From positions 33,049 to 97,048 of the forward strand of contig JAUCBJ010008839.1 in the NCBI GenBank assembly GCA_032718475.1: 64,000 nucleotides of DNA, in the 5' to 3' direction. Each line of letters opens with the position of its first letter. The stretch's first letter is position 1. Source of the DNA: Nemertoderma westbladi (Eukaryota > Animalia > Xenacoelomorpha). This document shows positions 14,630 through 60,026 of the stretch, one piece after another. A model generated the notes under the pieces. The model had not been told where the DNA came from. It did no database searches and saw nothing but the letters and a program-made list of their open reading frames with translations. Made by a program: the position numbers and the translations under genes.

Positions 14630-14725
14630 TTTGGACGAATTTACAAAAACTACGAGACGTTTCGTGAGAACGCTAACCCAATCGCAGCTGCAAAGGGAAA
14701 TCATCATAGATTTGTCTCACCTGAG
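14630..14725 (+). CDS. Astacin exon 3 (prodomain)
   Basis: tgtttcag|FGRIYKNYETFRENANPIAAAKGNHHRFVSPE|gtataa, phase 0-0. Confidence 0.55.
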
Positions 14726-14873
14726 GTATAAAAATAAATTTACGACCGATCGAGTTTCTTGCCTTCTTGTCTGTACATACTGATAGCACACCACGGATGA
14801 GGTATAAAAATAAATTTACGACCGATCGAGTTTCTTGCCTTCTTGTCTGTACATACTGATAGCACACCACGGA
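14722..14873 (+). repeat. 76-bp tandem duplication spanning the exon 3 splice donor
   Basis: tgag|gtataaaaataaatttacgaccgatcgag...agcacaccacgga occurs twice (14722 and 14798). Confidence 0.95.
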
Positions 14874-15106
14874 GCATCAATTTAACTTTAAGATATGGCA
14901 TAATTTCCATTAATTATTGTTTTCTGTTGTTGTATAGTAGGCCTATAATACACCACATTCTTACTCTATCGCACGATGACCAATCGCACTGTAACCGACG
15001 ACTTGACTGGAAATAATTATGTGTAACTGTGTTGGTATTACGGTGGGTGGGAATCTATATAGTGTTTATCAGATGCATGGGCGGTAGTAAATAGGGAGAT
15101 CAGCTG

Positions 15107-18100
15107 TTGTTGACGTGGACGATAGCACTGCCATAGACACAGCTCTATTGCGGACGTGGAATATTGCACTGCCATAGACACGGCTCTATTGTGGACGTAG
15201 AATATTGCACTGCCATAGACACAGCTCTATTGCGGACGTGGAATATTGCACTGCCATAGACACGGCTCTATTGTGGACGTAGAATATTGCACTGCCATAG
15301 ACACAGCTCTATTGCGGACGTGGAATAAGCACTGCCATAGACACAGCTCTATTGTGGACGTAGAATATTGCACTGCCATAGACACGGCTCTATTGTGGAC
15401 GTAGAATATTGCACTGCCATAGAGACAGCTCAATTGTGGACGTAGAATATTGCACTGCCATAGACACAGCTCTATTGCGGACGTGGAATATTGCACTGCC
15501 ATAGACACGGCTCTATTGTGGACGTAGAATATTGCACTGCCATAGAGACAGCTCAATTGTGGACGTAGAATATTGCACTGCCATAGACACAGCTCTATTG
15601 TGGACGTAGAATATTGCACTGCCATAGACACGGCTCTATTGTGGACGTAGAACATTACACTACCATGGACACGGCTCTATTGTGGACGTAGAATATTGCA
15701 CTGCCATAGACACGGCTCTATTGTGGACGTAGAATATTGCACTGCCATAGACACGGCTCATTGTGGACGTAGAATATTGCACTGCCATAGACACAGCTCT
15801 ATTGTGGATGTAGGATATTGCACTGCCATAGACACAGCTCTATTGTGGACGTGGAAGATTGCACTGCCATAGACACAGCTCTATTGCGGACGTAGAATAT
15901 TGCACTGCCATAGACACAGCTCTATTGTGGACGTAGAATATTGCACCGCCATAGACACGGCTCTATTGTGGACGTAGAATATTGATCTGCCATAGACACA
16001 GCTCTATTGTGGACGTGGAATATTGCACTGCCATAGACACGGCTCTATTGTGGACGTAGAATATTGCACTGCCATAGACACGGCTCTATTATGGACGTGG
16101 AATATTGCACTGCCATAGACACGGCTCTATTGTGGACGTGGAATATTGCACTGCCATAGACACGGCTCTATTGTGGACGTAGAATATTGCACTGCCATAG
16201 ACACAGCTCTATTGTGGACGTGGAAGATTGCACTGCCATAGACACAGCTCTATTGCGGACGTAGAATATTGCACTGTCATAGACACAGCTCTATTGTGGA
16301 CGTAGGATATTGCACTGCCATAGACACGGCTCTATTGTGGACGTAGAATATTGCTCTGCCATAGACACAGCTCTATTGTGGACGTGGAATATTGCACTGC
16401 CATAAACACGGCTCTATTGTGGACGTAGAATATTGCACTGCCATAGACACGGCTCTATTGTGGACGTAGAATATTGCACTGCCATAGACACAGCTCTATT
16501 GTGGACGTGGAATATTGCACTGCCATAAACTCGGCTCTATTGTGGACGTAGAATATTGCACTGCCATAGACACGTTTCTATTGTGGACGTAGAATATTGC
16601 ACTGCCATAGACACAGCTCTATTGCGGACGTAGAATATTGCACTGCCATAGACACAGCTCTATTGTGGACGTAGGATATTGCACTGCCATAGACACGGCT
16701 CTATTGTGGACGTAGAATATTGCACTGCCATAGACACAGCTCTATTGTGGACGTAGAATATTGCACTGCCATAGACACGGCTCTATTGTGGACGTAGAAT
16801 GTTGCACTGCCATAGACACAGCTCTATTGTGGAAGTTGAAGGTTGCAGTGCCATGACACAACTCTTATTGTGGACGTAGGATATTGCACTGCCATAGACA
16901 CGGCTCTATTGTGGACGTAGAATATTGCACTGCCATAGACACGTTTCTATTGTGGACGTAGAATATTGCACTGCCATAGACACAGCTCTATTGTGGACGT
17001 AGGATATTGCACTGCCATAGACACGGCTCTATTGTGGACGTAGAATATTGCACTGCCATAGACACGGCTCTATTGTGGACGTAGAATATTGCACTGCCAT
17101 AGACACAGCTCTATTGTGGACGTAGAATATTGCACTGCCATAGACACTGCTCTATTGTGAACGTAGGATATTGCACTGCCATAGACACGGCTATATTGTG
17201 GACGTAGAATATTGCACTGCCATAGACACAGCTCTATTGTGGACGTAGAATATTGCACTGCCATAGACATAGCTCTATTGTGGACGTAGGATATTGCACT
17301 GCCATAGACACGGCTCTATTGTGGACGTAGAATATTGCACTGCCATAGACACAGCTCTATTGTGGAAGTTGAAGGTTGCAGTGCCATGACACAGCTCTAT
17401 TGTGGACGTAGAATATTGTACTGCCATAGACACAGCTCAATTATGGACGTATAAAATTGCACTGCCATAGACACGGCTCTATTGTGGAAGTTGAAGTGCC
17501 ATGACACAGCTCTATTGTGGACGAAGAATATTGTACTGCCATAGACACAGCTCTATTGTGGACGTAGGATATTGCACCGCCATAGACACAGCTCTATTGT
17601 GGACGTGGAAGATTGCACTGCCATAGACACGGCTCTATTGTGGACGTGGAAGATTGCACTGCCATAGACACAGCTCTATTGTGACGTGGAATATTGCACT
17701 GCCATAGACACAGCTCTATTGTGGACGTAGAATATTGCACTGCCATAGACACAGCTCTATTGTGGACGTAGGATATTGCACCGCCATAGACACGGCTCTA
17801 TTGTGGACGTAGAATATTGCACTGCCATAGACACAGCTCAATTGTGGACGTATAATATTGCACTGCCATAGACACAACTCTATTGTGGACGTGGAAGATT
17901 GCACTGCCATAGACACGGCTCTATTGTGGACGTGGAAGATTGCACTGCCATAGACACAGCTCTATTGTGACGTGGAATATTGCACTGCCATAGACACAGC
18001 TCTATTGTGGACGTAGAATATTGCACTGCCATAGACACAGCTCTATTGTGGACGTAGGATATTGCACCGCCATAGACACGGCTCTATTGTGGACGTAGAA

Positions 18101-21100
18101 TATTGCACTGCCATAGACACAGCTCTATTGTGGACGTAGAATATTGCACTGCCATAGACACAGCTCTATTGTGGACGTAGGATATTGCACTGCCATAGAC
18201 ACCGCTCCATTGTGGACGTGGAATATTGCACTGCCATAAACTCGGCTCCATTGTGGACGTGGAATATTGCACTGCCATAAACTCGGCTCTATTGTGACGT
18301 GGAATATTGCACTGCCATAGACACAGCTCTATTGTGACGTGGAAGATTGCACTGCCATAAACACGGCTACTTTGTGGACGTAGAATATTGCACTGCCATA
18401 GATACAGCTCTATTGTGGACGTAGAATATTGCACAGTCATAGACACAACTCTATTGTGGACGTAGGATATTGCACTGCCATAGACACGGCTCTATTGTGG
18501 ACGTAGAATATTGCACTGCCATAGACACGGCTCTATTGTGGGCGTAGAATATTGCACTGCCATAGACACATCTCTATTGTGGAAATATAATATTGCACTG
18601 CCATAGAGACAGCTCTATTGTTGACGTAGAATATTGCACTGCCATAGACACAGCTCTACAGTGGACGTAGAAGATTACACTGCCATAGACACAGCTCTAT
18701 TGTGGACGTAGAATATTGCACTGCCATAGACACAGCTCTATTGTGGACGTAGAATATTGCACTGCCATAGACACGGCTCTATTGTGGACGTAGAATATTG
18801 CACTGCCATAGACACAGCTCTATTGTGGAAGTTGAAGGTTGCAGTGCCATGACACAGCTCTATTGTGGACGTAGAATATTGCGCTGCCATAGACACAGCT
18901 CTATTGTGGACGTAGGATATTGCACTGCCATAGACACGGCTCTATTGTGGACGTAGAATATTGCACTGCCATAGACACGGCTCTATTGTGGACGTAGAAT
19001 ATTGCACTGCCATAGACACAGCTCTATTGTGGACGTAGAATATTGCACTGCCATAGACACTGCTCTATTCTGAACGTAGGATATTGCACTGCCATAGACA
19101 CGGCTATATTGTGGACGTAGAATATTGCACTGCCATAGACACAGCTCTATTGTGGACGTAGAATATTGCACTGCCATAGACATAGCTCTATTGTGGACGT
19201 AGGATATTGCACTGCCATAGACACGGCTCTATTGTGGACGTAGAATATTGCACTGCAATAGACACAGCTCTATTGTGGAAGTTGAAGGTTGCAGTGCCAT
19301 GACACAGCTCTATTGTGGACGTAGAATATTGTACTGCCATAGAAACAGCTCAATTATGGACGTATAATATTGCACTGCCATAGACACGGCTCTATTGTGG
19401 AAGTTGAAGTGCCATGACACAGCTCTATTGTGGACGAAGAATATTGTACTGCCATAGGCACAGCTCAATTGTGGACGTATAATATTGCACTGCCATAGAC
19501 ACAGCTCTATTGTGGACGTGGAAGATTGCACTGCCATAGACACGGCTCTATTGTGGACGTGGAAGATTGCACTGCCATAGACACAGCTCTATTGTGACGT
19601 GGAATATTGCACTGCCATAGACACAGCTCTATTGTGACGTGGAATATTGCACTGCCATAAACACGGCTCCTTTGTGGACGTAGAATATTGCACTGCCATA
19701 GACACATCTCTATTGTGGAAATATAATATTGCACTGCCATAGAGACAGCTCTATTGTTGACGTAGAATATTGCACTGCCATAGACACAGCTCTACAGTGG
19801 ACGTAGAATATTACACTGCCATAGACACAGCTCTATTGTGGACGTAGAATATTACACTGCCATTGACACAGCTCTATTGTGGACGTAGAATATTGCACTG
19901 CCATAGACACAGGTCTATTGTGGACGTGGAATATTACACTGCCATAGACACAGCTCTACAGTGGACGTAGAAGATTACACTGCCATAGACACAGCTCTAT
20001 TGTGGACGTAGAATATTGCACTGCCATAGACACAGCTCTATTGTGGACGTAGAATATTGCACTGCCATAGACACAGCTCTATTGTGGACGTAGAATATTG
20101 AACTGCCATAGAGACAGCTCAATTGTGGACGTCGAATATTGCACTGCCATAGACACAGCTCTACAGTGGACGTAGAAGATTACACTGCCATAGACACAGC
20201 TCTATTGTGGACGTAAAATATTGCACTGCTATAGAGACAGCTCAATTGTGGACGTAGAATATTGCACTGTCATAGACACAGCTCTATTGTGGACGTAGAA
20301 TATTGCACTGCCATAGACACGGCTCTATTGTGGATGTAGTATATTGCACTGCCATAGACACAGCTCTATTGTGGACGTAGAATATTACACTGCCATAGAG
20401 ACAGCTCAATTGTGGACGTAGAATATTGCACTCCCATAGACACAGATATATTATGGACTTGGGATATTGCACTGCCATAGACACGGCTCTATTGTGGACG
20501 TAGAATATTGCACTGCCATAGAGACAGCTCAATTGTGGACGTAGAATATTGCACTGCCATAGACACAGCTCTACAGTGGACGTAGAATATTGCACTGCCA
20601 TAGACACAGCTCAATTGTGGACGTAGAATATTGCACTGCCATAGACACAGCTCTACAGTGGACGTAGAATATTGCACTGCCATAGACACAGCTCTATTGT
20701 GGACGTAAAATATTGCACTGCCATAGAGACAGCTCAATTGTGGACGTAGAATATTGCACTGCCATAGACACAGCTCTATTGTGGACGTAGAATATTACAC
20801 TGCCATAGAGACAGCTCAATTGTGGACGTAGAATATTGCACTGCCATAGACACAGCTATATTATGGACTTGGAACATTGCACTGCCATAGACACGGCTCT
20901 ATTGTGGAAGTTGAAAGTTGCAGTGCCATGACACAGCTCTATTGTGGACGTAGAATATTGCACTGCCATAGAGACAGCTCAATTGTGGACGTAGAATATT
21001 GCACTGCCATAGAGACAGCTCAATTGTGGACGTAGAATATTGCACTGCCATAGACACAGCTCTATTGTGGACGTAGAATATTGCACTGCCATAGAGACAG

Positions 21101-21229
21101 CTCAATTGTGGACGTAGAATATTGCACTGCCATAGACACGGCTCTATTGTGGATGTAGAATATTGCACTGCCATAGACACGACTCTATTGTGGACGTAGA
21201 ATATTGCACTGCCATAGACGCAGCTCTAT
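15107..21229. repeat. 41-bp minisatellite, ~150 copies
   Basis: Unit gtggacgtagaatattgcactgccatagacacagctctatt; blocks of variant units recur about 1.9 kb apart. Confidence 0.99.
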
Positions 21230-21422
21230 ATTGTGGTTGTGGACATGGAAGATAGCATGTCCACAATCTAATCGGTTAATATCCGTATGCATTATTTAAG
21301 CGGGACGAATTTAAAAACTATATTTAATAAGTTTATTGAGTAACTTCCAAGTGTACGATTTATATCAAATCTTCCCCTCATTCAAATACGTGCAGTGCAT
21401 AAAATTAACTCAAAGACTCAGA

Positions 21423-21747
21423 CAGGGTTGCCACTCTAGTTCAGTTTCAATTTTCCCTGACTTTATGAAAAAATTCCATGACTGCAGGTACACAGCATTT
21501 TTATAGAATACAGTATACTTATATATTATTGGCCGCTTTATTATATTCCAAACAATGTTACGAGTTAAGCAATTAGAGTGCACCTATATTTAGTGATGCG
21601 AGGAAATCAAAAGGCGAGCGAAGCGAGCAGAAAAATTGTACCCATTTTCGCTTATGAAACATGTTCTGTATATCACATTCCCTGACATTTCAAGAAAAAA
21701 TGAAATTCCCTGACTATTCCAGGTATTCCAAGTGAGTGGCAACCCTG
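21423..21747. mobile_element. hAT-like MITE, 14-bp TIR CAGGGTTGCCACTC, 5-bp TSD TCAGA
   Basis: tcaga|cagggttgccactc ... gagtggcaaccctg|tcaga; internal ttccctgac subterminal repeats. Confidence 0.85.
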
Positions 21748-22101
21748 TCAGATTGTTGAGTGGAGTATAAAAGTTGATGGAGCTGAAGTAGCAAAAGTTT
21801 AACGGAGAAAATAAAATTTCTGACCAGTAAGAAGTCGGATGGTCAAACTATCTCTGTTTCTAAATTCCATGCAATATCAGTACGATATGTAGAAATAATA
21901 TTCCACGACAACATGGTGTATATCGGATACATACAGTATTTATAAAAAACAATTATTAACAATTTATTTAGTGATTCTAATTTTATAAAAATATATCATA
22001 ACAATTTATTATTTATCTATAGTTACTAATATTAGTATAATTATATCTCATTTCTCATGAACTTAAATGTTTAACAACATAAAGTAAACTTCAGTTGGTT
22101 C

Positions 22102-22391
22102 CAGGGTTCCGGAGTTCTGACACTAAAGAACCGACTATCTCGTCAAAAAATAAATTATACTTCGAATACAACTCTGACTAGGACCAAAAAATATAAAACA
22201 ATTGAAAAAATAGACTCATGGTAATAACGTGGGCTAAACAATCATTCTCAAAAATTACTTTCATTTTTTAATAAACAAACCATTATTTTGTTCTAAATAA
22301 TGCTGAATTTTTGAGTCGTTGTCCTGTGCATAAATTTTTAAGGACTCCAGCTAAAAACATGGACTAGAGGGGACTCAAATCCGGAACCCTG
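22102..22391. mobile_element. Possible old MITE (12-bp TIR CAGGGTTCCGGA) in the NELF-B 3' UTR region
   Basis: cagggttccgga ... tccggaaccctg; no TSD visible. Confidence 0.45.
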
Positions 22392-22409
22392 ATAATTACA
22401 AACAATAAA

Positions 22410-23072
22410 CTAATCGGACTCCATATTATCTGAAACATCAGTATCTTCGTCGTCTTTACTAAGAACTGATTTATCCAGTTTATCTCTCAACGTAGTGTAC
22501 GCTTTATGCACCGGCACGGAATGCTCCTCGCCAGGACGAACAACTTCCAGGATCGTAACGAGAATATCTACTGGCATCTTATAGGCCACGAAGTACAGCA
22601 AGCGAACCACGTGTTTGATAACGTTCTCCTGGGAAGACGAACTTCGTAGCAGAAACTCGTCGAACACACCTTGACAGAACGCGGGTCTGGCGAACTCGTC
22701 CGGTATCGAGCACAAAGAGGAAACGAGTCCGTTTATCAGACTATCGTTCTGCCAGATATCCAGTTCGCAGTCGGCTAGTAACGGCAACAAACGCGGGATG
22801 TTGTGTCTCCCGTAGTTTCCGTTACAGACTTTATCTACGTATTGGAGGGTTATTAGCACGGCTAGTTTGTTGCATTTAATCCCGGCGACCACGGTCTTTG
22901 GGAGGGGCTCGGGTGTGGGCAGGGAGCCCGGCTCATCCTCGGGGTGGTCCCGAGCTAACTCCTCGATTATACGGGAGTCCGACAGTCGGATCTGGTCGTC
23001 CACCATCACGGACTGGATGGACGGGACGAGTTTACTGATGGTGTCGGAGGATAGACGCGGCTCCTTAAACAC
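22410..23072 (-). CDS. NELFB: Negative elongation factor B (COBRA1), exon 2
   Basis: ttacccag|VFKEPRL... continues exon 1 as DIIDSQ|VFKEP, matching the NELF-B WDMIDSQVFKEP motif; LMVDD-like VMVDDQ; stop at 22410. Confidence 0.9.
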   Translation of the reverse strand: MFKEPRLSSDTISKLVPSIQSVMVDDQIRLSDSRIIEELARDHPEDEPGSLPTPEPLPKTVVAGIKCNKLAVLITLQYVDKVCNGNYGRHNIPRLLPLLADCELDIWQNDSLINGLVSSLCSIPDEFARPAFCQGVFDEFLLRSSSSQENVIKHVVRLLYFVAYKMPVDILVTILEVVRPGEEHSVPVHKAYTTLRDKLDKSVLSKDDEDTDVSDNMESD

Positions 23073-23724
23073 CTGGGTAATAAAGATAATAAAGTAAAAC
23101 TAATTTAAACTAAAACATGTAAATAAAATTTATCGAAACTTAAAGCCTCGGTTATATTATTATTAGGAACTTGTGTGCGCATCGATTATACCATACTTCC
23201 GGGATCCGTAGTAGACTTCCGGGATGCGTCATGGACCAATTTCTAGCAACTTCCGGGTCAAACCCGCTAATTCTGGTTACCAGTAATCTACTTAACATAG
23301 CGAAGTGAAAAAAAAACAAATTATTATAAAATAAAACAACTCGAAAAAGTTTAAAGTAAAAGACAGACAACAGAACCGTTAAAAAAATATAATTAAATTG
23401 AGATAAGTTGTTGAGTTAGACAATATATAATAATAGATACCTAGGAACCTGAGCTGAAGATTAATAATAATTAATTAATCAATGATGGGGAACTGGACGA
23501 GAGTAACATCTCGTCTTAGTGTTAAATAATCAATTAAGGGAAAGAAGCGGGTTACAGTGGCAAGTTATTCTAACCAAAACAATAAACAAATATCAATAGA
23601 ACAGGTTACAGTTACAGTATATTTTTAAGAGTTTTCAATTTTCCCCTTGAGAATATCTGCTTAAATCACACCATACATCTAAAATAAAACAATACCGCGG
23701 TATGTAAATATCACACGACAATAC

Positions 23725-24798
23725 CTGGGAATCTATAATATCCCACGCCGATAAGGCGAGGTTAGCTAATCGGAGTAGCAAAGCGATCTCTCGGTTATCG
23801 CGGGGTAATCCTTCACTAACAACCACCACCTGCTCCAACAGGTTAACTATACTACGAGATATCGTGTATATCGCGAAGGGGTCGCACAATATCATCGCGA
23901 TATCCCCGAGTACCTCCTGCCCTTTACGCAACCCGTCGAGGTACTTCTCCAACTGAATCCCCCGTTTAGTGTCTATCATTCGCTCCCGGATACACGCATC
24001 CAGACACCACGCGAACTTATGACACAAATCCACCTCGCAAATCGCGTTGTTATTCGCATCGTGCAGCGCCATTAACAACTCCGCTCGCAATGTGCAATAA
24101 TGGACATTGCGTGTTCGCAGGAACAATGTGCGAAGAAACTGCAACGTAACATCGTACAGTTTAACCTGCTGGCCTATCATTTCTAATTGTTTAGCTATTA
24201 GTTCGCTTTGCCTGCGAGTTTTAGGGGAAACAGAATATAAGGAATTCTTCGTGGATAAACTGAACATGGATTCCTCTTTGTGCGAAACATATTCCGTTAG
24301 TAAAGGGGATAATTCGTCGCCGAATAAACTCTGATTCTGTCGCCAAATATGTCGTTTAACTTCGATGGGACAATCTCGATACAATTCTTTATCGGTAACA
24401 AGTTTTTTTATTGTTCCGGGAGGGATTGTATCCACACGTTGTAGTAAATGCATTACTATCGGTCGCAGCACAGGCACTTTTATTACTGGGTAGGACTTCG
24501 CTAAGAGTTCTAGCAACTGTTTCTGCCCGGATTTCTGGTCCGGTGGTTCCGTTTTAGAGGCCAAGGCGTCGATTCGCTCCATCAGACGGGTTCGCAACTC
24601 GAGGAATACCGACTGGTGGAACTGCAGCCGTCGGACGTTGTGCAGGTCGAGTAGCGGCAAGGCCGGTTGCAACGAAGGGAGGAGAATTCCGTTCTCCGTT
24701 TGGAACTCCTCGATCGCTCGCAGGGGGTCGCTGCAGTTAGTCAACGTGTCCCTGAGATACTCGCTGCCTGGGATACCGATCTCTTCGAGTCCCGACAT
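23725..24798 (-). CDS. NELFB: Negative elongation factor B (COBRA1), exon 1
   Basis: TLTNCSDPLRAIEEFQTENGILLPSLQPALPLLDLH, LQFLRTLFLRTRNVHYCTLRAELLMALHD and CHKFAWCLDACIRE are diagnostic of NELF-B. Donor CAG|GTAT at 23724; the joined protein is 578 aa. Confidence 0.95.
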
Positions 24799-26539
24799 TG
24801 TACTTGTAGGCCTAACAACGGTTGCGTTTTGCGTACGGTCGGCACGGTAGCAGGAAAACAGGCAGTAAAATGAAAAGCTACAAAGGTGACCAAGTGCAAG
24901 TACTACTGCTGGCAGCCCAGCAGCATACTAGTCAGCTAGTAGGAGTAGCTGAGTAGGCCTACCGTAGAACCGTGCCGTTCGTTATCGGTCACTGGTAGCC
25001 GGTAGCGTAAACTAAAAAATGGAGGGAATGATTAAAATATTAATAAAAAAAATAAATAAAAAAATATATAATAAAAATTAAAAATAAAACGATGGAATGC
25101 AGTTTCGTGTACCAGTAAATTTTTGCATAGGCAACCAATGACTGAATGATGAATCGAACTAGAGCCTTTCTGCCTTTAGAGTTAAATTCAAATATGCTCA
25201 ATCCAGCAATCCAACAAAAGTTATTGGGAAGTTTGGTTTGGTGTGTTAGAGGTGTAAAGGCATGACTCATGGTACAGCAGCAGCTTGGAGTCAGGCAGTA
25301 CTGGTGCAGGCTGCAGGGCGGCCCTTTCATCAGTTCATTGCAAAACCCAGAATCCCCATCACTTTTCATTTTGAGAAAAACGCAAGACTTTGAACCTTCT
25401 GCGATTGATGATCAAACTATGAAATCAACCCAAAATTTCTCAGCAATTTTTGACGTATGGCCTTTTCACACTTTAGCTACGCCTACGATATGCAATACCG
25501 GTACCGGTTGCCGGTAAATGATTATTACTTTTACCGCATTGCGATGCTGTGCGATGTGAGTACGGTTCTCGCTACCCCGGGATCTGATATTTCTCTCAGC
25601 ATTCTGCGGAGCAGGCGAAGCCTTAAATAATAATAAAAGTTAAAAACTCTTTTATTAATCTATAACATATCAAATGAAATAAAAATAAGAATATTACCCG
25701 CAGGAACACCCGTGCAATAATTAATAATCAATAATTAATAAAATGGTTGAGTCAAACAATTCAGTAACGAAGGTTGGTAATAGCGCGATACGGGTCGGCA
25801 GGGCCCGCGGTATTAGGTGGGTATGGGTCGGTACAACTCTGTATTATATATATCGCTGATTCTCTACTCCATGCATGTCGTTATGGCCCTGTATGCATCG
25901 GTAGCTAATGCCCAGAAACCCCAGATGATACCAAAATAAACTCCATAGATCTGTATAGTGATCTTATTTGAATTTACCTCTCTTTTATGAAAGCTCTACT
26001 GTAGTCCGATTAATTCAATGTTTACCTTCGCAAAAACTCACCTACGCGAAACTGATTCCATCGGCTACGCGTAGCCTACACCGACGCGGGAAAGTCAAAC
26101 CCCAAAGACAGGTTGACAACATGTAATATGTTGCTTAATAAATGTTATAATGTGCTACATAACAACACTTGTACGGAATATAAGATTCCTTTAAAATATA
26201 AATTGTGGAAAAATTATGTAAGTCGATAAATATTTTAATTTTTATCTCACGAAAAGCGGCGTTACATTATTTATTATAGATGATTCGTAACTTGCATTAC
26301 GGATGGATTTATCATGTAAATTAAATAAATAATTTTTAATAGTTTGAAAATGACAATTCAAATGTATCAGTTCTGAGATATACTGTTGCATGTAGGCCTG
26401 AAATAACATTAAAAAAATTATATTCATTCAGCCAGATAGATCTGGTTGAATGATAGATCATAAATCATAAATAATATAACACACTTCTTGGGGCCTTCGC
26501 CCACACGGATGGGGGTAAACGCTACACCTACTTTTAGAC

Positions 26540-26595
26540 TGGTTAGTAAAGAAGCAGGTTACAGAGGCGGGTTGAAGGAACCAAAACAATAAATG
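26540..26595 (-). mobile_element. MITE family A internal fragment
   Basis: ggttagtaaagaagcaggttacagaggcgggttgaaggaaccaaaacaataaa is the reverse complement of the family core. Confidence 0.7.
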
Positions 26596-27309
26596 AGATC
26601 TGGTACTATTTCAGAAAACCAAATTTAATTGAGAATAAACACCTTGAGAATCAACACTCAGATGCATAGGCCTACAGGCTTATAAATACTGTTCATAGGC
26701 GTATGTACGCGTATATAGGTGTATATGTAGGTGTAGGCATTTACCCATTACCCCCATATGTGGGTGTAGGTGTAGTAATTTACCCATTAACCCCACACGT
26801 AAGTCCAGATGAGCCTTTGTGTAGAGTTACAATTATTGGACCTAGTCGTTCGCCCCCTAGCGGTCGACGGATGAACTACAGAAGTCTGTCTGTGTGTATA
26901 ATTTCTAAACGTTTTATAGACTATGTAATATGTATACCAAATTGGGTTCCATTTCATCAAAGATTCACCGACTTATTAACATTCAAATATTTTCGTTGCC
27001 AGCGACGACGACAAAAACAAACACGACGACAGGCGGGTCAACTAATTATAATTATATCCCCACGTTAAGGCTCACCTGGACTTATGTAGCTCGCCCCGCT
27101 GCACACACAGTAGCACACAACATTATTTAGGACTGAAGCACATACAGTAGGCCTAGGCATAATTATATGTAGGGCCTTGCGAATTATTTTTTCTTTTTAC
27201 ATTTTTGTAATTATTTTTTTGAATTTTTTTCGAAAATATTTTTTTTCTTTTTTTTCGATATTATTAATTTAATTTTTTCGAAAGTATTTTTCTTTTTTCG
27301 AAAGTATTT

Positions 27310-48900: not shown

Positions 48901-49595
48901 ACACTAGGTCCCATTTATTAGTGTAGCGTGCAAGTACACTAGGCCCCATTTAGTTAGTTTAGGGTGCAAGTACACTAGGCCCCATTTATTAGTGTAGCGT
49001 GCAAGTACACTAGGCCCCATTTGGTTAGTTTGGGGTGCAAGTACACTAGGCCCCATTTAATTAGTGTAGGGTGCAAGTACACTAGGTCCCATTTTTTAGT
49101 GTAGGGTGCAAGTATACTAGGTCCAACTTAATTGGTGTAGGGTTCAAGTACACTAGGCCCCATTTAATTAGTGTAGGGTGCAAGTACACTAGGTCCCATT
49201 TATTAGTGTAGGGTGCAAGTACAATTAATCGGCCCCATTTAATTAGTGTAGCGATCAAGTACACTAGGCCCCAATTATTAATGTAGGGTGCAAGTATACT
49301 AGGTCCCACTTAATTAGTGTAGGGTGCAAGTACAATTAATCGGCCCCATTTAATTAGTGTAGCGAGCAAGTACACTAGGCCCCATTTATTAGTGTAGGGT
49401 GCAAGTATACTAGGTCCCACTTAATTAGTGTAGGGTTCAAGTACACTAGGCCCCATTTATTAGTGTAGGGTGCGAGTACAATAGGCCCCATTTATTAGTG
49501 TAGGGTACAAGCATACTAGGTCCCACTTAATTAGTGTAGGGTGCAAGTACACTAGGCCCCATTTAATTAGTATAGGGTGTGAGTACAGTAGGCCC
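42975..49595. repeat. ~35-40-bp minisatellite, ~180 copies, with higher-order structure
   Basis: Unit tagtgtagggtgcaagtacactaggccccatttat, with an aattaat-insertion variant. Confidence 0.98.
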
Positions 49596-49965
49596 ACGAT
49601 GACGATGACGACAACTAGGCCTATTTGCAGAAATTAACCCACGCCCCTAACAGTGTAATTGCGCCAAGGCTCCTCCAACTTCGTGGCTCGCACCATATAA
49701 ATTACTATAACCAAGAGTCTGTAATTATTATAACTAAAATTGATGATTAATTAATTAATCAACTGCAACCATTTGCGTCTAGTACTTCTCGAAGAACGAC
49801 CAGCCAACACTGGTTCCGTATCAGACCACTGGTGAAGCGGACCAGATGGGCAAACGAACTGGCCTAACATTCTACGACGCTAAAGTAGCCAACCTCATGT
49901 ACCAATGTTCCGGTGGGTGTACGTTTCATTTCAATCTGCACAGCGCACGCGACATCCATCCCTAG

Positions 49966-52900
49966 ACGCATTCACTTATAAACGCACACGCATTTAGTCC
50001 CCTTATTAGCTGCACTCAACATGTAATCGCATTCACTTATAAACGCACACGCATTTAGTCCCCTTATTAGCTGCACTCAACATGTAATCGCATTCACTTA
50101 TAAACGCCCACGCATTTAGTCCCCTTATTAGCTGCACTCAACATGTAATCGCATTCACTTATAAACGCACACGCATTTAGTCCCCTCATTTGCTGCACTC
50201 AATATTTAATAGCATTCACTTATTCACTTATTACTTACTGTACAATACATACCGGTACGCTGTACTTATATTGTTATGATGCATTTCATATATATATAAT
50301 GTACGAAAATAAATTAAAAAAAAAAAATAAACGCACACGCATTTAGTCCCTTATTAGCTGCACTCAACATGTAATCGCATTCACTTATAAACGCACACGC
50401 ATTTAGTCCCCTTATTTGCTGCACTCAACATGTAATCGCATTCACTTATAAACGCACACGCATTTAGTCCCCTTATTAGCTGCACTCAACATGTAATCGC
50501 ATTCACTTATAAACGCACACGCATTTAGTCCCCTTATTTGCTGCACTAAACGCACACGCATTTAGTCCCCTTATTTGCTGCACTCAATATGTAATCGCAT
50601 TTACTTATAAACGCACACGCATTTAGTCCCCTTATTTGCTGCACTCAACATGTAATCGCATTCACTTATAAACGCACACGCATTTAGTCCCCTTATTTGC
50701 TGCACTAAACGCACACGCATTTAGTCCCCTTATTTGCTGCACTCAATATGTAATCGCATTTACTTATAAACGCACACGCATTTAGTCCCCTTATTTGCTG
50801 CACTCAATATGTAATCGCATTTACTTATAAACGCACACGCATTTAGTCCCCTTATTTGCTGCACTAAACGCACACGCATTTAGTCCCCTTATTTGCTGCA
50901 CTCAATATGTAATCGCATTTACTTATAAACGCACACGCATTTAGTCCCCTTATTTGCTGCACTCAATATTTAATAGCATTCACTTATAAACGCACACGCA
51001 TTTAGTCGCCTTGTTTGCTGCACTCAACATGTAATCGCATTCACTTATAAACGCACACGCATTTAGTCCCCTTATTTGCTGCACTAAACGCACACGCATT
51101 TAGTCCCCTTATTTGCTGCACTCAATATGTAATCGCATTTACTTATAAACGCACACGCATTTAGTCCCCTTATTTGCTGCACTCAATATTTAATAGCATT
51201 CACTTATAAACGCACACGCATTTAGTCGCCTTGTTTGCTGCACTCAACATGTAATCGCATTCACTTATAAACGCACACGGATTTAGTCCCCTTATTTGCT
51301 GCACTCAACATTTAATCGCATTCACTTATAAACGCACACGCATTTAGTCCCCTTATTTGCTGCACTAAACGCACACGCATTTAGTCCCCTTATTTGCTGC
51401 ACTCAATATGTAATCGCATTTACTTATAAACGCACACGCATTTAGTCCCCTTATTTGCTGCACTCAATATTTAATAGCATTCACTTATAAACGCACACGC
51501 ATTTAGTCGCCTTGTTTGCTGCACTCAACATGTAATCGCATTCACTTATAAACGCACACGGATTTAGTCCCCTTATTTGCTGCACTCAACATTTAATCGC
51601 ATTCACTTATAAACGCACACGCATTTAGTCCCCTTATTTGCTGCACTAAACGCACACGCATTTAGTCGCCTTGTTTGCTGCACTCAACATGTAATCGCAT
51701 TCACTTATAAACGCACACGGATTTAGTCCCCTTATTTGCTGCACTCAATATGTAATCGCATTCACTTATAAACGCACACGCATTTAGTCCCCTTATTTGC
51801 TGCACTAAACGCACACGCATTTAGTCCCCTTATTTGCTGCACTCAATATGTAATCGCATTTACTTATAAACGCACACGCATTTAGTCCCCTTATTTGCTG
51901 CACTCAATATTTAATAGCATTCACTTATAAACGCACACGCATTTAGTCCCCTTATTTGCTGCACTCAACATTTAATCGCATTCACTTATAAACGCACACG
52001 CATTTAGTCCCCTTATTTGCTGCACTAAACGCACACGCATTTAGTCGCCTTGTTTGCTGCACTCAACATGTAATCGCATTCACTTATAAACGCACACGGA
52101 TTTAGTCCCCTTATTTGCTGCACTCAATATGTAATCGCATTCACTTATAAACGCACACGCATTTAGTCCCCTTATTTGCTGCACTCAACATTTAATCGCA
52201 TTCACTTATAAACGCACACGCATTTAGTCCACTTATTTTCTGCACTCAATATGAAATCGCATTCACTTATAAACGCACACGCATTTAGTCCACTTATTTT
52301 CTGCACTCAACATTTAATAGCATTCACTTATAAACGCCCACGCATTTAGTCCCCTTATTTGCTGCACTCAACATGTAATCGCATTCACTTATAAACGCAC
52401 ACGCATTTAGTCCACTTATTTTCTGCACTCAACATGTAATCGCATTCACTTATAAACGCACACGCATTTAGTCCCCTTATTTGCTGCACTCAATATGAAA
52501 TCGCATTCACTTATAAACGCACACGCATTTAGTCCACTTATTTTCTGCACTCAACATTTAATAGCATTCACTTATAAACGCCCACGCATTTAGTCCCCTT
52601 ATTTGCTGCACTCAACATGTAATCGCATTCACTTATAAACGCACACGCATTTAGTCCCCTTATTTGCTGCACTCAACATGTAATCGCATTCACTTATAAA
52701 CGCACACGCATTTAGTCCACTTATTTTCTGCACTCAACATTTAATAGCATTCACTTATAAACGCCCACGCATTTAGTCCCCTTATTTGCTGCACTAAACG
52801 CACACGTATTTAGTCCACTTATTTTCTGCACTCAACATTTAATAGCATTCACTTATAAACGCCCACGCATTTAGTCCCCTTATTTGCTGCACTCAACATG

Positions 52901-54391
52901 TAATCGCATTCACTTATAAACGCACACGCATTTAGTCCCCTTATTTGCTGCACTCAACATTTAATCGCATTTACTTATAACCGCACACGCATTTAGTCCC
53001 CTTATTTGCTGCACTCAACATTTAATCGCATTCACTTATAAACGCACACGCATTTAGTCCTCTTATTTGCTGCATTCAATATGTAATCGCATTCACTTAT
53101 AAACGCACACGCATTTAGTCCCCTTATTTGCTGCACTCAACATGTAATCGCATTCACTTATAAACGCACACGCATTTAGTCGCCTTATTTGCTGCACTCA
53201 ATATTTACTAGCATTCACTTATAAACGCATACAGTCCGCTTATTTGCTGCACTCAACATGTAATCGCATTCACTTATAAACGCACACGCATTTAGTCGCC
53301 TTATTTGCTGCACTCAACATGTAATCGCATTCACTTATAAACGCACACGCATTTAGTCGCCTTATTTGCTGCACTCAATATTTACTAGCATTCACTTATA
53401 AACGCATACAGTCCGCTTATTTGCTGCACTCAACATGTAATCGCATTCACTTATAAACGCACACGTATTTAGTCGCCTTATTTGCTGCACTCAACATGTA
53501 ATCGCATTCACTTATAAACGCACACGCATTTAGTCGCCTTATTTGCTGCACTCAATATGAAATCTCATTCACTTATAAACGCATACAGTCCGCTTATTTG
53601 CTGCACTCAACATGTAATCGCATTCACTTATAAACGCACACGTATTTAGTCGCCTTATTAGCTGCACTCAACATGTAATCGCATTCACTTATAAACGCAC
53701 ACGCATTTAGTCGCCTTATTTGCTGCACTCAATATGAAATCTCATTCACTTATAAACGCATACATTTCGCTTATTTGCTGCACTCAACATGTAATCGCAT
53801 TCACTTATAAACGCACACGTATTTAGTCGCCTTATTAGCTGCACTCAACATGTAATCGCATTCACTTATAAACGCACACGCATTTAGTCGCCTTATTTGC
53901 TGCACTCAATATGTAATCGCATTCACTTATAAACGCACACGTATTTAGTCGCCTTATTAGCTGCACTCAATATGTAATCGCATTCACTTATAAACGCACA
54001 CGTATTTAGTCGCCTTATTAGCTGCACTCAATATGTAATCGCATTCACTTATAAACGCACACGCATTTAGTCGCCTTATTTGCTGCACTCAATATGTAAT
54101 CGCATTCACTTATAAACGCACACGTATTTAGTCGCCTTATTAGCTGCACTCAATATGTAATCGCATTCACTTATAAACGCACACGTATTTAGTCGCCTTA
54201 TTAGCTGCACTCAATATGTAATCGCATTCACTTATAAACGCACACGTATTTAGTCGCCTTATTAGCTGCACTCAATATGTAATCGCATTCACTTATAAAC
54301 GCACACGCATTTAGTCGCCTTATTTGCTGCACTAAACGCACACGTATTTAGTCGCCTTATTAGCTGCACTCAACATGTAATCGCATTCACT
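49966..54391. repeat. 61-bp minisatellite with an interspersed 38-bp deletion variant, ~75 units
   Basis: Unit aacgcacacgcatttagtccccttatttgctgcactcaacatgtaatcgcattcacttata. Confidence 0.98.
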
Positions 54392-55062
54392 ATTTTCTTT
54401 GTTTTTCTGTACACGCATTAATTACACTAATTTATTTCTCTACACATTTAATTTTCGAATCGTGTTTGTTAACTTGAATCGTATTTCGATTTTCTACACT
54501 GATGTAGCAGCCTCTGCGGTAGTTTTCGTTATTGCTGTTTGGGCCTACCTATATTGTTTGTCGAAGTTAATTAATGTAGTGACGTTAAATGTGGTTGACA
54601 AATCTCTCGACGGTATACCAAAGACTTGCGCTTCATAGTACTGTATTATACAGAATGGCATTTATTTAATTCGCCTTGAATGCATCACCGTATTATTGTC
54701 TTAATACATTGTTATCATCGCATGTTATTGATTTTCGTTTTTTTTTTCAATGTTATTACAACTATTTACTCATTATTCATATTTTGTTGACAGTATCATA
54801 GCAACCGTGAATCACGGAAGTATTCAACTACTGTATAATATGCCATCTTTCTTTTCAACCAAAATACAACCATAATAAAAATGTAATGTTGTAATGTCGG
54901 TAACACAAAATTAATATGAACGGGACATAAGAAATGTTTGGGTAGTTATTATTCTATAGGAATTCTACGCTACTAGTAGTAAAAAATCGAGACCGGGCAA
55001 CAGATCTGTTACCCAGCCCAGGGTCTTGCATACGGTACTTGTTTATACTAGATTTACTCACT

Positions 55063-55315
55063 CCTGGATTAGTACAAATCAAAGACCAAAGACCCAACAC
55101 CCAATTATAAAGATCTGCATAATCTTGTAACATGTATTAACTTTCGTTTATTGTTTTGGTTCCTCCAACACGCCTCTGTAACCTGCTCCTTTACTAACCT
55201 GCTCCTTTAAATAGCAATAGGACCTAACGCTCTTTGGGACCTAACGCGACTTTACCTCTTTGTTTTGTATAGAACGGGCAGTAAAGTCTTCGGTATTTGT
55301 TATGTACTCACCCAG
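55063..55315. mobile_element. MITE family A copy 3
   Basis: ctggattagtacaaatcaaagaccaaagaccca ... ttgttatgtactcacccag with the shared core. Confidence 0.75.
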
Positions 55316-55489
55316 TCACTCCCATCTTGAGAACATGCTTGGTTGTTTCTAACGTGAAATGCAACCAAATTAGGTTCCACTTCCCAAGAAGGGCAACTCA
55401 GACTCTACGGGTCTCTTCGAGGAATCGGCATTTTTACAAAGCTAATAGAATTCATTTAAGTCGCACCAGGGATCCTGTTGATCCTGAGG

Positions 55490-56375
55490 ATCCTGTTGAT
55501 AGACTGTTATGTGGAAATCAGAATGGGTTCGTAAAGGTCGTGGGACTATGGAGCCCATTTTGGTGCTTAGAAGGATAATTAAAGTGTTATCTAGAATGTA
55601 ATACAGACATCTAGTTGTATTCTTTGTTGATTTTTTAAGGTCTTCGATTCAGTATTCCGATCACGTATGTTCAGCATACTTGCATCATACGGTATTCCTG
55701 AGGCAATTATTGCAGCTATCAAATAACTGTAAGATACTTTCACAACATTTTGTGTCTGCCGCTGATGGTAACACATATCTATTTTATGACTCATATGCGG
55801 AGTCCTCCAGGGTGACACGCTTACACCACGTGTTCATAATTGTAGTGCATTACCTTCTACGAATGTATTGCCATGGGAAGCATTGAATATTATGTCCAGA
55901 AATTGGAAGTCCCATAGAATAAAACGGAACCTCAAGGTTCGATTATTTATGGCAGCAGTTAGTATCAGTGTACTCTTATATGGGAGTCCATGCTGGGCTA
56001 AATCAATATATCAACATAAGTCTAAATGCAGACGACTCCAAATCTATGGATGGCACGTTTACAAGAATGCTATGCTGGGTTCATTTGTGTCAAATACAAT
56101 GAACGCATCTCCAATCAAACGCAGAACAACATTGGAGGTGTTCCATTATTCTCCCTAGCTTGACACTTGAACGGAACCGCCTCCGCTTTGCAGGATATTG
56201 CTTTTGCGTGCGGACCAGCCAGTGCATAATCTTGTGCTTTGGCGGCCTCATGGAATGAATAAGCATGGCGGACAGCCCATGATTTCCTGGACACTGGCCT
56301 TGAAAATGCGCATGATCTAGCAAAAGTCATGGGTGATACGTAGTTGTGGCGGCATAATTTTGTCGACAATCCGGC
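55490..56375 (+). mobile_element. Degenerate RTE-clade LINE (RT and C-terminal remnants)
   Basis: VDRLLCGNQNGF, FVDF.KVFDSV.R..M..ILASYGIP, GVLQGDTL, NWKS..LKVRLF..VLLYGSPCW, RLRFAG; multiple frameshifts. Confidence 0.85.
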
Positions 56376-56949
56376 ATTTTTTTAAACGAGTTATACAGCA
56401 TCAGGACAATCAAGGATGGGAGTGAACAGGAAGATGACTCACATAGCTGCATCTCAAAGTAATTGCAAGGCATCATCATTTTTTCATCATCCGGCTTACG
56501 CCCCGGTGGCTATAATAATAAAATTCACAAGTTAAAATAATATAATTCGCATTTGCACCAAAATCAACGGGAAACACAATAAAAATATACACCGGTAATT
56601 AAGCCTTGCGTTAAGTAGATATGTAGTGTAGTGCAGTTGCATTAAAATCATAGGGAGACACAATTAACAATATGTATGTATAATACCTAATATAACACCT
56701 TATAACACCTATCACCATTGCATCACTGATTGACCGCATGTCTGGGTCTCCAATTGACTTCAATTTCATTTGTTGTACTACATACTTCCCGGTATAGATT
56801 TTTTCCTGATAACAGCTAGAATTAGCTGATAAAATATAATTATTGAAAAGATAATCAACAAAACTAAGCAAATTTGGGGTCGCAATTATTTCAACAAATT
56901 ATTGTCCATCGGCCCTTCTCACATTCATATGTAATATGTTACGTTGCAG

Positions 56950-57057
56950 CTAAATGCGAAGTGAAACCAAAATGCGAGAAACCTGGGTATGTCGGGCCCG
57001 ATTGCACTTGTATGTGTCCTGATGGAACTGGTAGTTGTCATATACAGGAACACACAG
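56950..57057 (+). CDS. Astacin exon 9 (EGF-like module)
   Basis: gttgcag|KCEVKPKCEKPGYVGPDCTCMCPDGTGSCHIQEHT|gtaagt, phase 1-1; resembles the EGF-like module following the catalytic domain in BP10/SpAN-type astacins. Confidence 0.88.
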
Positions 57058-60026
57058 GTAAGTTGTCACGTCGTTAATAGTTGCTATGTAGGAACACACA
57101 GGTAAGTTGTCACGTCAATAATAGTTGCTATGTAGGAACACACAGGTAAGTTGTCACGTCGATAATAGTTGCTATGTAGGAACACACAGGTAAGTTGTCA
57201 CGTAGATAATAGTTGCTATGTAGGAACACACAGGTAAGTTGTCACGTCGTTAATAGTTGCTATGTAGGAACACACAGGTGAGTTGTCACGTGAATAATAG
57301 TTGTTATGTAGGAACACACAGGTAAGTTGTCACGTCAATAATAGTTGCTATGTAGGAACACACAGGTAAGTTGTCACGTCAATAAATAGTTGCTATGTAG
57401 GAACACACAGGTAAGTTGTCACGTCAATAATAGTTGCTATGTAGGAACACATAGGTAAGTTGTCACGTGAATAATAGTTGCTATGTAGGAACACACATGC
57501 AAGTTGTCACGTCGATAATAGTTGCTATGTAGGAACACACAGGTAAGTTGTCACGTCAATAATAGTTGCTATGTAGGAACACACAGGTAAGTTGTCACGT
57601 GAATAATAGTTGTTATGTAGGAACACACAGGTAAGTTGTCACGTCAATAATAGTTGCTATGTAGGAACACACAGGTAAGTTGTCACGTGAATAATAGTTG
57701 CTATGTAGGAACACACATGTAAGTTGTCACGTCGATAATAGTTGTTATGTAGGAACACACAGGTAAGTTGTCACGTCAATAATAGTTACTATGTAGGAAC
57801 ACACAGGTAAGTTGTCACGTCAATAATAGTTGCTATGTAGGAACACACAGGTAAGTTGTCACGTCAATAATAGTTGCTATGTAGGAACACACAGGTAAGT
57901 TGTCACGTCGATAATAGTTGATATGTAGGAACACACAGGTAAGTTGTCACGTCAATAATAGTTGCTATGTAGGAACACACAGGTAAGTTGTCACGTGAAT
58001 AATAGTTCCTATGTAGGAACACACAGGTAAGTTGTCACGTGAATAATAGTTGCTATGTAGGAACACACATGTAAGTTGTCACGTCGATAATAGTTGTTAT
58101 GTAGGAACACACAGGTAAGTTGTCACGTCAATAATAGTTACTATGTAGGAACACACAGGTAAGTTGTCACGTCAATAATAGTTGCTATGTAGGAACACAA
58201 AGGTAAGTTGTCACGTCGTTAATAGTTGCTATGTAGGAACACACAGGTAAGTTGTCACGTGAATAATAGTTGCTATGTAGGAACACACAGGTAAGTTGTC
58301 ACGTGAATAATAGTTGCTATGTAGGAATACACAGGTAAGTTGTCAAGTCAATAATAGTTGCTATGTAGGAACACACAGGTAAGTTGTCACGTGAATAATA
58401 GTTGCTATGTAGGAACACACAGGTAAGTTGTCACGTGAATAATAGTTGCTATGTAGGAACACACATGTAAGTTGTCACGTCGATAATAGTTGCTATGTAG
58501 GAACACACAGGTAAGTTGTCACGTCAATAATAGTTGCTATGTAGGAACACACAGGTAAGTTGTCACGTGAATAATAGTTGTTATGTAGGAACACACAGGT
58601 AAGTTGTCACGTCAATAATAGTTGCTATGTAGGAACACACAGGTAAGTTGTCACGTGAATAATAGTTGCTATGTAGGAACACACATGTAAGTTGTCACGT
58701 CGATAATAGTTGTTATGTAGGAACACACAGGTAAGTTGTCACGTCAATAATAGTTACTATGTAGGAACACACAGGTAAGTTGTCACGTCAATAATAGTTG
58801 CTATGTAGGAACACACAGGTAAGTTGTCACGTCAATAATAGTTGCTATGTAGGAACACACAGGTAAGTTGTCACGTCGATAATAGTTGATATGTAGGAAC
58901 ACACAGGTAAGTTGTCACGTCAATAATAGTTGCTATGTAGGAACACACAGGTAAGTTGTCACGTGAATAATAGTTGCTATGTAGGAACACACAGGTAAGT
59001 TGTCACGTGAATAATAGTTGATATGTAGGAACACACATGTAAGTTGTCACGTCGATAATAGTTGTTATGTAGGAACACACAGGTAAGTTGTCACGTCAAT
59101 AATAGTTACTATGTAGGAACACACAGGTAAGTTGTCACGTCAATAATAGTTGCTATGTAGGAACACACAGGTAAGTTGTCACGTCGATAATAGTTGCTAT
59201 GTAGGAACACACAGGTAAGTTGTCACGTCGATAATAGTTGTTATGTAGGAACACACAGGTAAGTTGTCACGTCAATAATAGTTGCTATGTAGGAACACAC
59301 AGGTAGCTGTCACGTCAATAATAGTTGCTATGTAGGAACACACAGGTAAGTTGTCACGTCGATAATAGTTGCTATGCAGGAACACACAGGTAAGTTATCA
59401 CGTCAATAATAGTTGCTATGTAGGAACACACAGGTAAGTTGTCACGTCAATAATAGTTGCTATGTAGGAACACACAGATAAGTTGTCACGTGAATAATAG
59501 TTGCTATGTAGGAACACACAGGTAAGTTGTCACGTTGATTAATAGTTGCTATGTAGGAACACACAGGTAAGTTGTCACGTCAATAATAGTTGCTATGCAT
59601 GAACACACAGGTAAGTTGTCACGTCAATAATAGTTGCTATGTAGGAACACACAGGTAAGTTGTCACGTGAATAATAGTTGATATGTAGGAACACACAGGT
59701 AAGTTGTCACGTCGATAATAGTTGCTATGAAGGAACACACAGGTAAGTTGTCACGTCAATAATAGTTGCTATGTAGGAACACACAGGTAAGTTGTCACGT
59801 GAATAATAGTTGCTATGTAGGAACACACAGGTAAGTTGTCACGTCGATAATAGTTGCTATGCAGGAACACACAGGTAAGTTGTCACGTCGTTAATAGTTG
59901 CTATGTAAGAACACACAGGTAAGTTGTCACGTCAATAATAGTTGCTATGTAGGAACACACAGGTAAGTTGTCACGTCGATAATAGTTGCTATGCAGGAAC
60001 ACACAGGTAAGTTGTCACGTCGATAA
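57046..60026 (+). repeat. 44-bp tandem array starting inside exon 9 and copying its splice donor, ~68 copies
   Basis: Unit aggaacacacag|gtaagttgtcacgtcaataatagttgctatgt. Confidence 0.99.

What the first reader, a model, noticed from the sequence alone, without database searches (positions are those of the whole stretch)
14722..60026. Recurrent tandem amplification of splice-donor junctions in one gene (candidate novel system)
At 3 of 10 astacin donors the sequence unit spanning exon end, GT and intron start is tandemly repeated: exon 3 (76 bp x2), exon 7 (41 bp x~13) and exon 9 (44 bp x~68). Each array begins in the last exon bases and extends only into the intron, so the protein is unchanged while each copy regenerates AG|GT. 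No array of this kind was seen at an acceptor. Three unrelated units anchored at the same functional landmark is unlikely by chance. Possible explanations (all inference) are a transcription- or splicing-coupled duplication mechanism such as R-loops or pausing at the 5' splice site, tolerance or selection for U1-binding arrays, or recursive-splicing ratchets. The 2, 13 and 68 copy series looks like stages of one process.
Basis: partly seen in the sequence, partly recalled or inferred. Interest (0 to 1): 0.85.

Follow-up and report, generated by a model that had tools for sequence, protein, structure and literature searches.

The report
Three "mirage" splice-donor repeats in astacin
In an animal's astacin protease gene, three exon ends with their splice signal are copied head-to-tail 2, 13 and 68 times into the next intron, yet the one spliced transcript seen uses the first signal at both sites that were checked, so this is likely a tolerated case of a repeat type already described in lancelet and human genes rather than a new system.

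Summary
The three repeats are real: 76 bp x2 (exon 3), 41 bp x13 (exon 7), 44 bp x68 (exon 9), at 3 of 11 donors. They match the published "mirage" minisatellites of amphioxus and the human F7 intron-7 repeat. One run that behaves as RNA splices from the first donor at exons 7 and 9; the downstream donors tested would all add a stop codon. A DNA run holds a likely single-copy allele at exon 7, and exon-9 repeat pieces occur in three DNA runs, so an assembly artefact is unlikely. The exon-9 array grew by internal block duplication, shows no excess conservation of its donor motif, and the copies make poor acceptors: no support for U1 arrays or recursive splicing. Tandem repeats fill 45% of the window. 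Three donor hits exceed local chance (0.2 expected, P about 0.001, post hoc), but donor versus acceptor is not significant (P=0.22). No genome was held, so the genome-wide test was not run. This scan has already noted many donor and acceptor arrays elsewhere in this genome (unchecked notes). Why arrays crowd at exon edges stays open.

The parts
12932..60651 (+). Astacin (M12A, BP10/SpAN-like) gene: signal peptide-like start, prodomain, catalytic domain with HExxHxxGxxH and SxMHY, Cys-rich exon, LDLa exon; continues beyond exon 10. Exons: 12932-12997, 14057-14125, 14630-14725, 30602-30824, 35389-35557, 40015-40090, 40980-41183, 42336-42462 (8a), 49783-49912 (8b), 56950-57057, 60538-60651
   Evidence: Open frame through either 8a or 8b; Pfam PF01400 on exons 5, 7, 8a, 8b and PF00057 on exon 10; BP10/SpAN-like names among homologs of exon 7; joins E5 to E10 via 8a in run X4
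14722..14873 (+). Exon-3 donor duplication: 76 bp x2, 100% identical, 4 exon bases + 72 intron bases, blunt junction without microhomology; second donor at 14802
   Evidence: use of the second donor would add a stop; not tested on reads
41180..41722 (+). Exon-7 donor array: 41 bp x13; authentic donor 41184, 12 downstream copies, 10 identical to it at -3..+6; bounded by a 7-of-8 direct repeat 41 nt apart, one arm of which is the donor itself
   Evidence: first donor used in X4 and likely single-copy allele in X3
57032..60027 (+). Exon-9 donor array: 44 bp x68; authentic donor 57058; unit likely derived from 26 exon + 20 intron bases, the exon-derived part having since diverged at -26..-13; array ends exactly on this unit boundary
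   Evidence: first donor used in X4, repeat pieces in X1-X3
15107..21229 (.). Comparison array, not at a splice site: 41 bp x150 in intron 3
35859..39508 (.). Comparison array: 36 bp x~85 grown from inside a dispersed repeat (single units at 32439-32473 and 61053-61087), split by a 585-bp insertion
43025..49595 (.). Comparison array: 36 bp x181 between exons 8a and 8b
49967..54374 (.). Comparison array: 61 bp unit, starting 54 nt after the exon-8b donor, not spanning it

Best explanation
These are three independent 'mirage'-type minisatellites: short tandem duplications that span a splice donor, likely born by ordinary DNA slippage or break repair in a genome rich in tandem repeats, likely enlarged by slippage and unequal exchange, and likely tolerated because the first donor is the one used. 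Shown: the repeats and their anatomy; first-donor use at exons 7 and 9 in one transcript-like contig; stops for the downstream donors tested; internal block duplication in the exon-9 array; similar arrays away from splice sites. Inferred: (1) birth as a single duplication, by three different junction types (blunt at exon 3, 7-of-8 microhomology at exon 7, one base at exon 9); (2) because the first copy keeps exon and donor intact, the duplication acts as an intron insertion and survives, whereas a wholly exonic duplication of 41, 44 or 76 bases would shift the frame; (3) 5'-to-3' donor choice as shown for human F7, with nonsense-mediated decay removing any leak; (4) the crowding at three donors reflects a high birth rate, this survival filter and the choice of a striking window.
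For: Definition and both-border occurrence of mirages, no effect on mRNA, length instability (PMC3087553; PMC3902484). Human F7 unit = last 4 exon bases + 33 intron bases, only the first donor used; same type in IFI6/6-16, CBS, LMNB2, PDGF (PMC1557585). Run X4, one 1,972-nt contig: 41183>42336 at exon 7 and exon 9 straight to exon 10 at the first donor. All 13 downstream donors translated (7 of 67 at exon 9, 5 of 12 at exon 7, 1 of 1 at exon 3) give a stop before the new donor. Run X3: one 742-nt contig skips 494 nt of the exon-7 array on a haplotype with 14 other letters and 3 gaps, and no X3 depth lies in the array's middle bins; X2 shows an array-bearing piece and a piece with the X3 flanking variants. 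Exon-9 array: a 10-unit block repeated 22 units later (0 of 200 shuffles reach it), no gradient from the donor (rho 0.00); block duplication also in 3 of 4 non-donor arrays at 0 of 200 and in the fourth at 2 of 200. Tandem repeats cover 28.8 of 64 kb; 5 of 7 large arrays do not touch a splice site.
Against: Local chance gives only 0.13-0.34 donor hits against 3 seen (P 0.0002-0.0045), and two of three units begin within 4 bases of the donor; survival alone does not raise the rate above the intronic background. Unchecked scan notes list genes of this genome with 3, 4 and 7 border arrays, which would be hard to get by chance if they hold. RNA evidence is one contig from one run not on record as RNA; minor or degraded products cannot be seen, and exon 3 was not tested. 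One scan note reports use of a variant downstream donor in another gene (not tested here). The single-copy allele could be a contig collapse or a contraction rather than the ancestral state.
Confidence: 0.62

Rival explanations
1. Border-biased but splicing-independent origin: exons are islands of identity between divergent haplotypes, so recombination or repair tracts start in exons and misalign where homology ends, seeding or enlarging arrays at both donors and acceptors. The products are still tolerated mirages.
For: Premise seen: the X3 haplotype differs at 10 places in 340 nt of intron 6 and at none in the 204 nt of exon 7, and at none in exon 8a while its flanks differ. Local excess over chance. 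Both borders are hit in amphioxus and, by unchecked notes, in this genome. The origin of mirages is called unclear in PMC3087553.
Against: No direct test; conserved exons are expected anyway. Most large arrays in the window (5 of 7) are not at borders. One window, chosen post hoc.
Confidence: 0.2
2. Donor-specific, transcription- or splicing-coupled duplication (R-loop, pausing or U1-linked break at the 5' splice site).
For: 3 donors versus 0 acceptors here; units at exons 3 and 7 start within 4 bases of the donor.
Against: Donor versus acceptor P=0.22. Three different junction types and exon shares of 4, 0-4 and about 26 bases. Growth is internal, not from the live donor. Acceptor mirages are published and noted in this genome (10 notes fit 'acceptor', 7 of the 8 shown describe acceptor arrays; unchecked).
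Confidence: 0.1
3. Functional arrays: selected U1-binding platforms or recursive-splicing ratchets.
For: 56 of 67 downstream exon-9 copies are perfect CAG|GTAAGT and are preceded by CAG.
Against: Donor positions carry 8 distinct variants in 9 positions against 17 in the other 35, no deficit (P of so few = 0.95). Upstream windows of the copies have 16-37% T and an earlier AG in 3 of 3, against 26-74% T and no AG in 10 of 10 real acceptors; exon-3 and exon-7 copies end in GAG and AAG. A likely single-copy allele exists at exon 7. The introns concerned are short apart from the arrays.
Confidence: 0.05
4. Assembly artefact.
For: No record spans a whole array; only contigs were available. One X3 contig crosses the exon-7 site with a single unit.
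Against: Repeat pieces far above flank depth at exon 9 in X1, X2 and X3, and at exon 7 in X1 (80.6 and 100 against 13.5); 29 distinct unit variants in ordered blocks. X1 may be the assembly's own sample, but X2/X3 are another.
Confidence: 0.03

Closest known systems
Amphioxus 'mirage' minisatellites (Adh3, globins BflGb6 and BflGb9, troponin C, PGBD5); PMC3087553 and PMC3902484, passages read; the original Adh3 paper seen only as a citation
   Same: Unit spans an exon-intron border and repeats the splice signal; unit length within 10-160 bp; many but not all copies keep the signal; mRNA normal; copy number varies between haplotypes; the boundary copy is left out of homogenisation.
   Different: Another animal lineage (NELF-B 54-59% identical to all 120 listed homologs, none close); larger array (68 copies against 3-6 in BflGb6); three borders in one gene, all donors; somatic instability untested.
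Human F7 intron-7 37-bp VNTR, and the IFI6/6-16, CBS intron 13, LMNB2 and PDGF repeats; PMC1557585, abstract and passages read
   Same: First unit holds the last exon bases plus the intron start (4 exon bases in F7, as at exon 3 here); identical pseudo-donors follow; the first donor is used.
   Different: One array per gene and 5-25 copies in the human cases; in 6-16 and CBS two pseudo-sites are also used, which could not be tested here with contigs.
Recursive splice sites (AG|GT ratchet points); definition recalled, from no call
   Same: Juxtaposed AG|GT inside an intron.
   Different: No acceptor-like tract before the copies, earlier AG present, non-YAG ends at two of three sites, no conservation of the motif.

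Membership tests
Mirage minisatellite | Tandem unit spans an exon-intron boundary of the host gene | tested here: met
   borders of exons 7 and 9 confirmed by X4
Mirage minisatellite | Splice signal reiterated in many but not all copies | tested here: met
   10 of 12 (exon 7), 60 of 67 AG|GT (exon 9), 1 of 1 (exon 3)
Mirage minisatellite | Unit length in the reported range (10-72 bp Adh3, 150-160 bp globins) | tested here: met
   41, 44, 76 bp
Mirage minisatellite | Normal mRNA, authentic site used | tested here: met
   Exons 7 and 9 in one contig of run X4; exon 3 not tested; minor products invisible in contigs
Mirage minisatellite | Copy-number variation between haplotypes | tested here: inconclusive
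   Likely 1 versus 13 at exon 7 (one X3 contig; collapse not excluded); depth at exon 9 differs between runs but is no copy number
Mirage minisatellite | Concerted evolution inside the array with the boundary copy left out | tested here: met
   Exon 9: the exon's -26..-13 differs from the corresponding part of the intron copies (random match rate 0.013 and 0.00025 for two unit variants); block duplication. Exon 7 too short to show blocks
Mirage minisatellite | Somatic length instability | not testable with these tools
   needs small-pool PCR or single-molecule reads of one animal
Recursive splice site | Acceptor context (YAG with T-rich tract, no earlier AG) before the regenerated donor | tested here: not met
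Recursive splice site | Splicing intermediates at the internal site | not testable with these tools
   only contigs were served
Selected U1-binding array | Donor motif less variable than the rest of the unit | tested here: not met
   8 variants in 9 positions against 17 in 35; low power

The most novel reading that the evidence does not exclude
This animal's genome has a mutational hot zone at exon edges: duplications are seeded or enlarged where the shared exon meets divergent intron DNA (or where the spliceosome engages), so that splice junctions are amplified many times more often than matched intronic DNA and have become a genome-wide class of satellite, filling introns with tens to thousands of decoy splice sites.
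Probability: 0.3. Interest if true: 0.7.

Novelty: new member of a known kind. Interest (0 to 1): 0.3.

Why it matters
As a single locus it is a further example of a published repeat class, in a new lineage and at larger size. It offers a natural test of 5' splice-site choice: one true donor followed by 56 perfect copies, and alleles that likely differ between 1 and 13 copies. The larger stake is the origin of mirages, which PMC3087553 calls unclear: if a genome-wide count shows real enrichment at exon borders, this genome would make that question, and the linked model of intron gain from border duplications, directly testable.

Tried and rejected
No whole genome is held, so the decisive donor/acceptor/shuffle test was not run. 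The first enrichment figures (expected 0.28-0.51, P 0.002-0.013) split the 61-bp array into three events through a merging error; one search uses a hand-merged list of 33 events and replaces them. No RNA holder is listed in the run search; X4 is on record as 'DNA?' and is read as RNA only because its contig joins exons at GT..AG. Summed contig depths were not used as copy numbers. Microhomology at exon 7 is only suggestive: 10.6% of random 8-mers have a 7-of-8 match 20-80 nt downstream, 0 of 8 unrepeated donors do, and on the X3 allele the match is 6 of 8. No degenerate junction copies at the other 8 donors or 10 acceptors (best match 3-7 mismatches in 14). Donor units have no other copy in the masked window; only the 36-bp and a low-complexity 48-bp unit do. 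ARAGORN and Rfam: nothing. Eight paper searches turned up no genome-wide test of border enrichment and no report outside amphioxus and human; the library lacks most subscription papers. PMC10078293 passages did not bear on the question. The original Adh3 paper is not held. Supplements were not read; additional files 4-7 of PMC3087553 may bear on unit phase. No look-alike notes in other genomes; no note held all words of a genome-wide test. The organism was not identified; one scan note's 'acoel' label is untested.

Full report
Observation. Reading the window gave 11 exons of an astacin gene on the + strand that translate without a stop through either of two versions of exon 8. Pfam matched Astacin on exons 5, 7, 8a and 8b and LDLa on exon 10; exons 4 and 9 had no match. 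Homologs of exon 7 are astacins, several named BP10/SpAN-like. So 3 of 11 donors are repeated. A scan of 14-mers across all 11 donors and 10 acceptors found exact copies only at these three.

Is it more than chance? Tandem repeats cover 45% of the window, and 5 of its 7 large arrays do not touch a splice site. After collapsing arrays to one unit, 9 arrays with period of 30 or more in 23.7 kb give 0.21 expected donor hits; P(3 or more) is 0.0009, and 0.0002-0.0045 over five definitions (one search held a merging error and is superseded). The same rates give an 11-donor gene a 0.0002-0.003 chance of three hits, so if the genome has of the order of 10,000 multi-exon genes (my assumption), a few to a few tens would look like this by chance, and a scan would pick them. 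One window therefore shows a local excess but not a genome-wide bias. Donors against acceptors is 3 of 12 against 0 of 11, P=0.22. No genome was held for the full test.

Anatomy. The three units arose differently. Exon 3: a perfect pair with 4 exon bases and a blunt junction. Exon 7: the donor and an intronic word 41 nt downstream match at 7 of 8 letters; copy 2 carries the intronic version of that word and ten copies carry the donor version, as expected from exchanges at different points of this short homology. This needs 0-4 exon bases; such matches occur for 10.6% of random 8-mers, so it is suggestive only. Exon 9: if the unit starts 26 bases inside the exon, the array ends exactly on a unit boundary, and the 12 otherwise unexplained unit bases align to exon -26..-13 (random rate 0.013 and 0.00025 for two variants). 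That points to an older duplication that diverged before amplification (inference). The array then grew by internal blocks: 10 units repeated 22 units later, reached by 0 of 200 shuffles, with no gradient of similarity from the donor (rho 0.00). The four non-donor arrays tested show blocks too (0, 0, 0 and 2 of 200 shuffles); the exon-7 array is too short to show any.

Splicing. The run search listed six runs of one organism label, none on record as RNA. I laid four of the six. X4 behaves as RNA: one 1,972-nt contig joins exon 6 to 7 and exon 7 to 8a at GT..AG, using the first exon-7 donor, with loose ends matching exons 5 and 9; on the exon-9 stretch a contig of the same length and depth leaves at the first donor into exon 10. 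All 13 downstream donors that I translated (7 of 67, 5 of 12, 1 of 1) add a stop, so leaky use would likely be degraded (established knowledge of nonsense-mediated decay) and cannot be seen in contigs. The copies make poor acceptors (lower T content, an earlier AG in 3 of 3 against 0 of 10 real acceptors, GAG and AAG ends at two sites), and donor positions in the exon-9 array are no less variable than the rest (8 variants in 9 positions against 17 in 35). Neither recursive splicing nor selection for U1 sites is supported, though the second test has low power.

Reality and variation. Exon-9 repeat pieces are present well above flank depth in X1, X2 and X3; X1 may be the assembly's own sample, and X2 and X3 are one other sample. 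At exon 7, X1 has repeat contigs at depth 80.6 and 100 against 13.5 in the flank; X3 has one 742-nt contig that skips 494 nt, leaving one unit, on a haplotype with 14 other letters and 3 gaps; X2 shows pieces of both kinds. This is likely a single-copy allele, but contig collapse is not excluded and no record spans an array. All 10 X3 differences upstream lie in intron 6, none in exon 7.

Mechanism. Best reading (0.62): ordinary short duplications in a repeat-rich genome, enlarged by slippage and unequal exchange, surviving because the first copy leaves exon and donor whole and the first donor is used. Rivals: a splicing-independent bias at exon edges, where identity between haplotypes ends (0.2); a donor-specific splicing-coupled process (0.1); functional arrays (0.05); artefact (0.03). 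The weakness of the best reading is that survival alone does not lift the rate above the intronic background.

Known relatives. I recalled the amphioxus mirages before searching. [quoted passage not shown] PMC1557585 (abstract, outline and passages) describes the human F7 repeat of 4 exon plus 33 intron bases, shows first-donor choice by oriented scanning, and lists 6-16, CBS, LMNB2 and PDGF; the search term that found it came from a scan note. Five of seven mirage features were met, one was inconclusive and one could not be tested. Eight searches gave no genome-wide test of border enrichment.

Earlier scan notes. Notes on other pieces of this genome describe many donor arrays and several acceptor arrays, some genes with 3-7. 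They are unchecked and chosen for being striking, so I treat them as leads: they argue against donor specificity and for running the genome-wide count.

Verdict. Observation confirmed; new member of a known kind; interest 0.3. The open and more interesting possibility, a real bias of repeat birth or growth at exon edges across this genome, has probability about 0.3 and would deserve 0.7.

Noticed in passing
window 42336-42462 and 49783-49912 (+): Two versions of astacin exon 8, likely mutually exclusive: each alone keeps the frame, both together shift it; both match Pfam Astacin positions 148-189; 23 of 41 residues identical, 12 of them with different codons, identity by codon position 25/28/14, which suggests both are under selection. 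The X4 contig uses 8a and skips 8b. One paper search for astacin mutually exclusive exons gave 0 hits. It would swap the C-terminal part of the catalytic domain.
   Followed up: partly
window 22410-24798 (-): NELF-B/COBRA1 gene nested antisense in astacin intron 3, with one predicted intron; 54-59% identical to the 120 listed homologs, no close relative.
   Followed up: partly
window 317-1756 (+): Single-ORF alpha-kinase (PF02816) of 479 aa with an in-frame 18/36/54-bp coding repeat at 1232-1496.
   Followed up: partly
window 32400-32610, 35700-39560, 60905-61130: Three copies of a dispersed SINE-like repeat (label from appearance; ARAGORN and Rfam found nothing). In one copy an internal 36-bp unit has expanded to about 85 copies and is split by a 585-bp insertion: array birth away from any splice site.
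   Followed up: partly
window 14047-14071 and 14171-14195: A 76%-identical 25-nt echo of the exon-2 acceptor and exon start lies 124 nt downstream; possibly a decayed border duplication, possibly chance.
   Followed up: no
window 41221-41227: The copy nearest the true exon-7 donor lacks the AG before GT. A reference title seen reports a substitution in the second CBS repeat that prevents alternative splicing; a single case here.
   Followed up: no
window 56720-57050: Contig depth of the unique flank of exon 9 is 42.1 in X1 and 37.1 in X3, against about 13.5 and 19 around exon 7; X2 is level. Could be haplotype splitting or a duplicated exon-9 region.
   Followed up: no
window 2369-3484 (-) and 33864-34355 (-): ORFs of 371 and 163 aa that look like retroelement remains by recall; not searched.
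   Followed up: no
window 4671-5889 and 6155-7963: (TAGT)x305 and a 50-bp x36 array upstream of the astacin gene.
   Followed up: no
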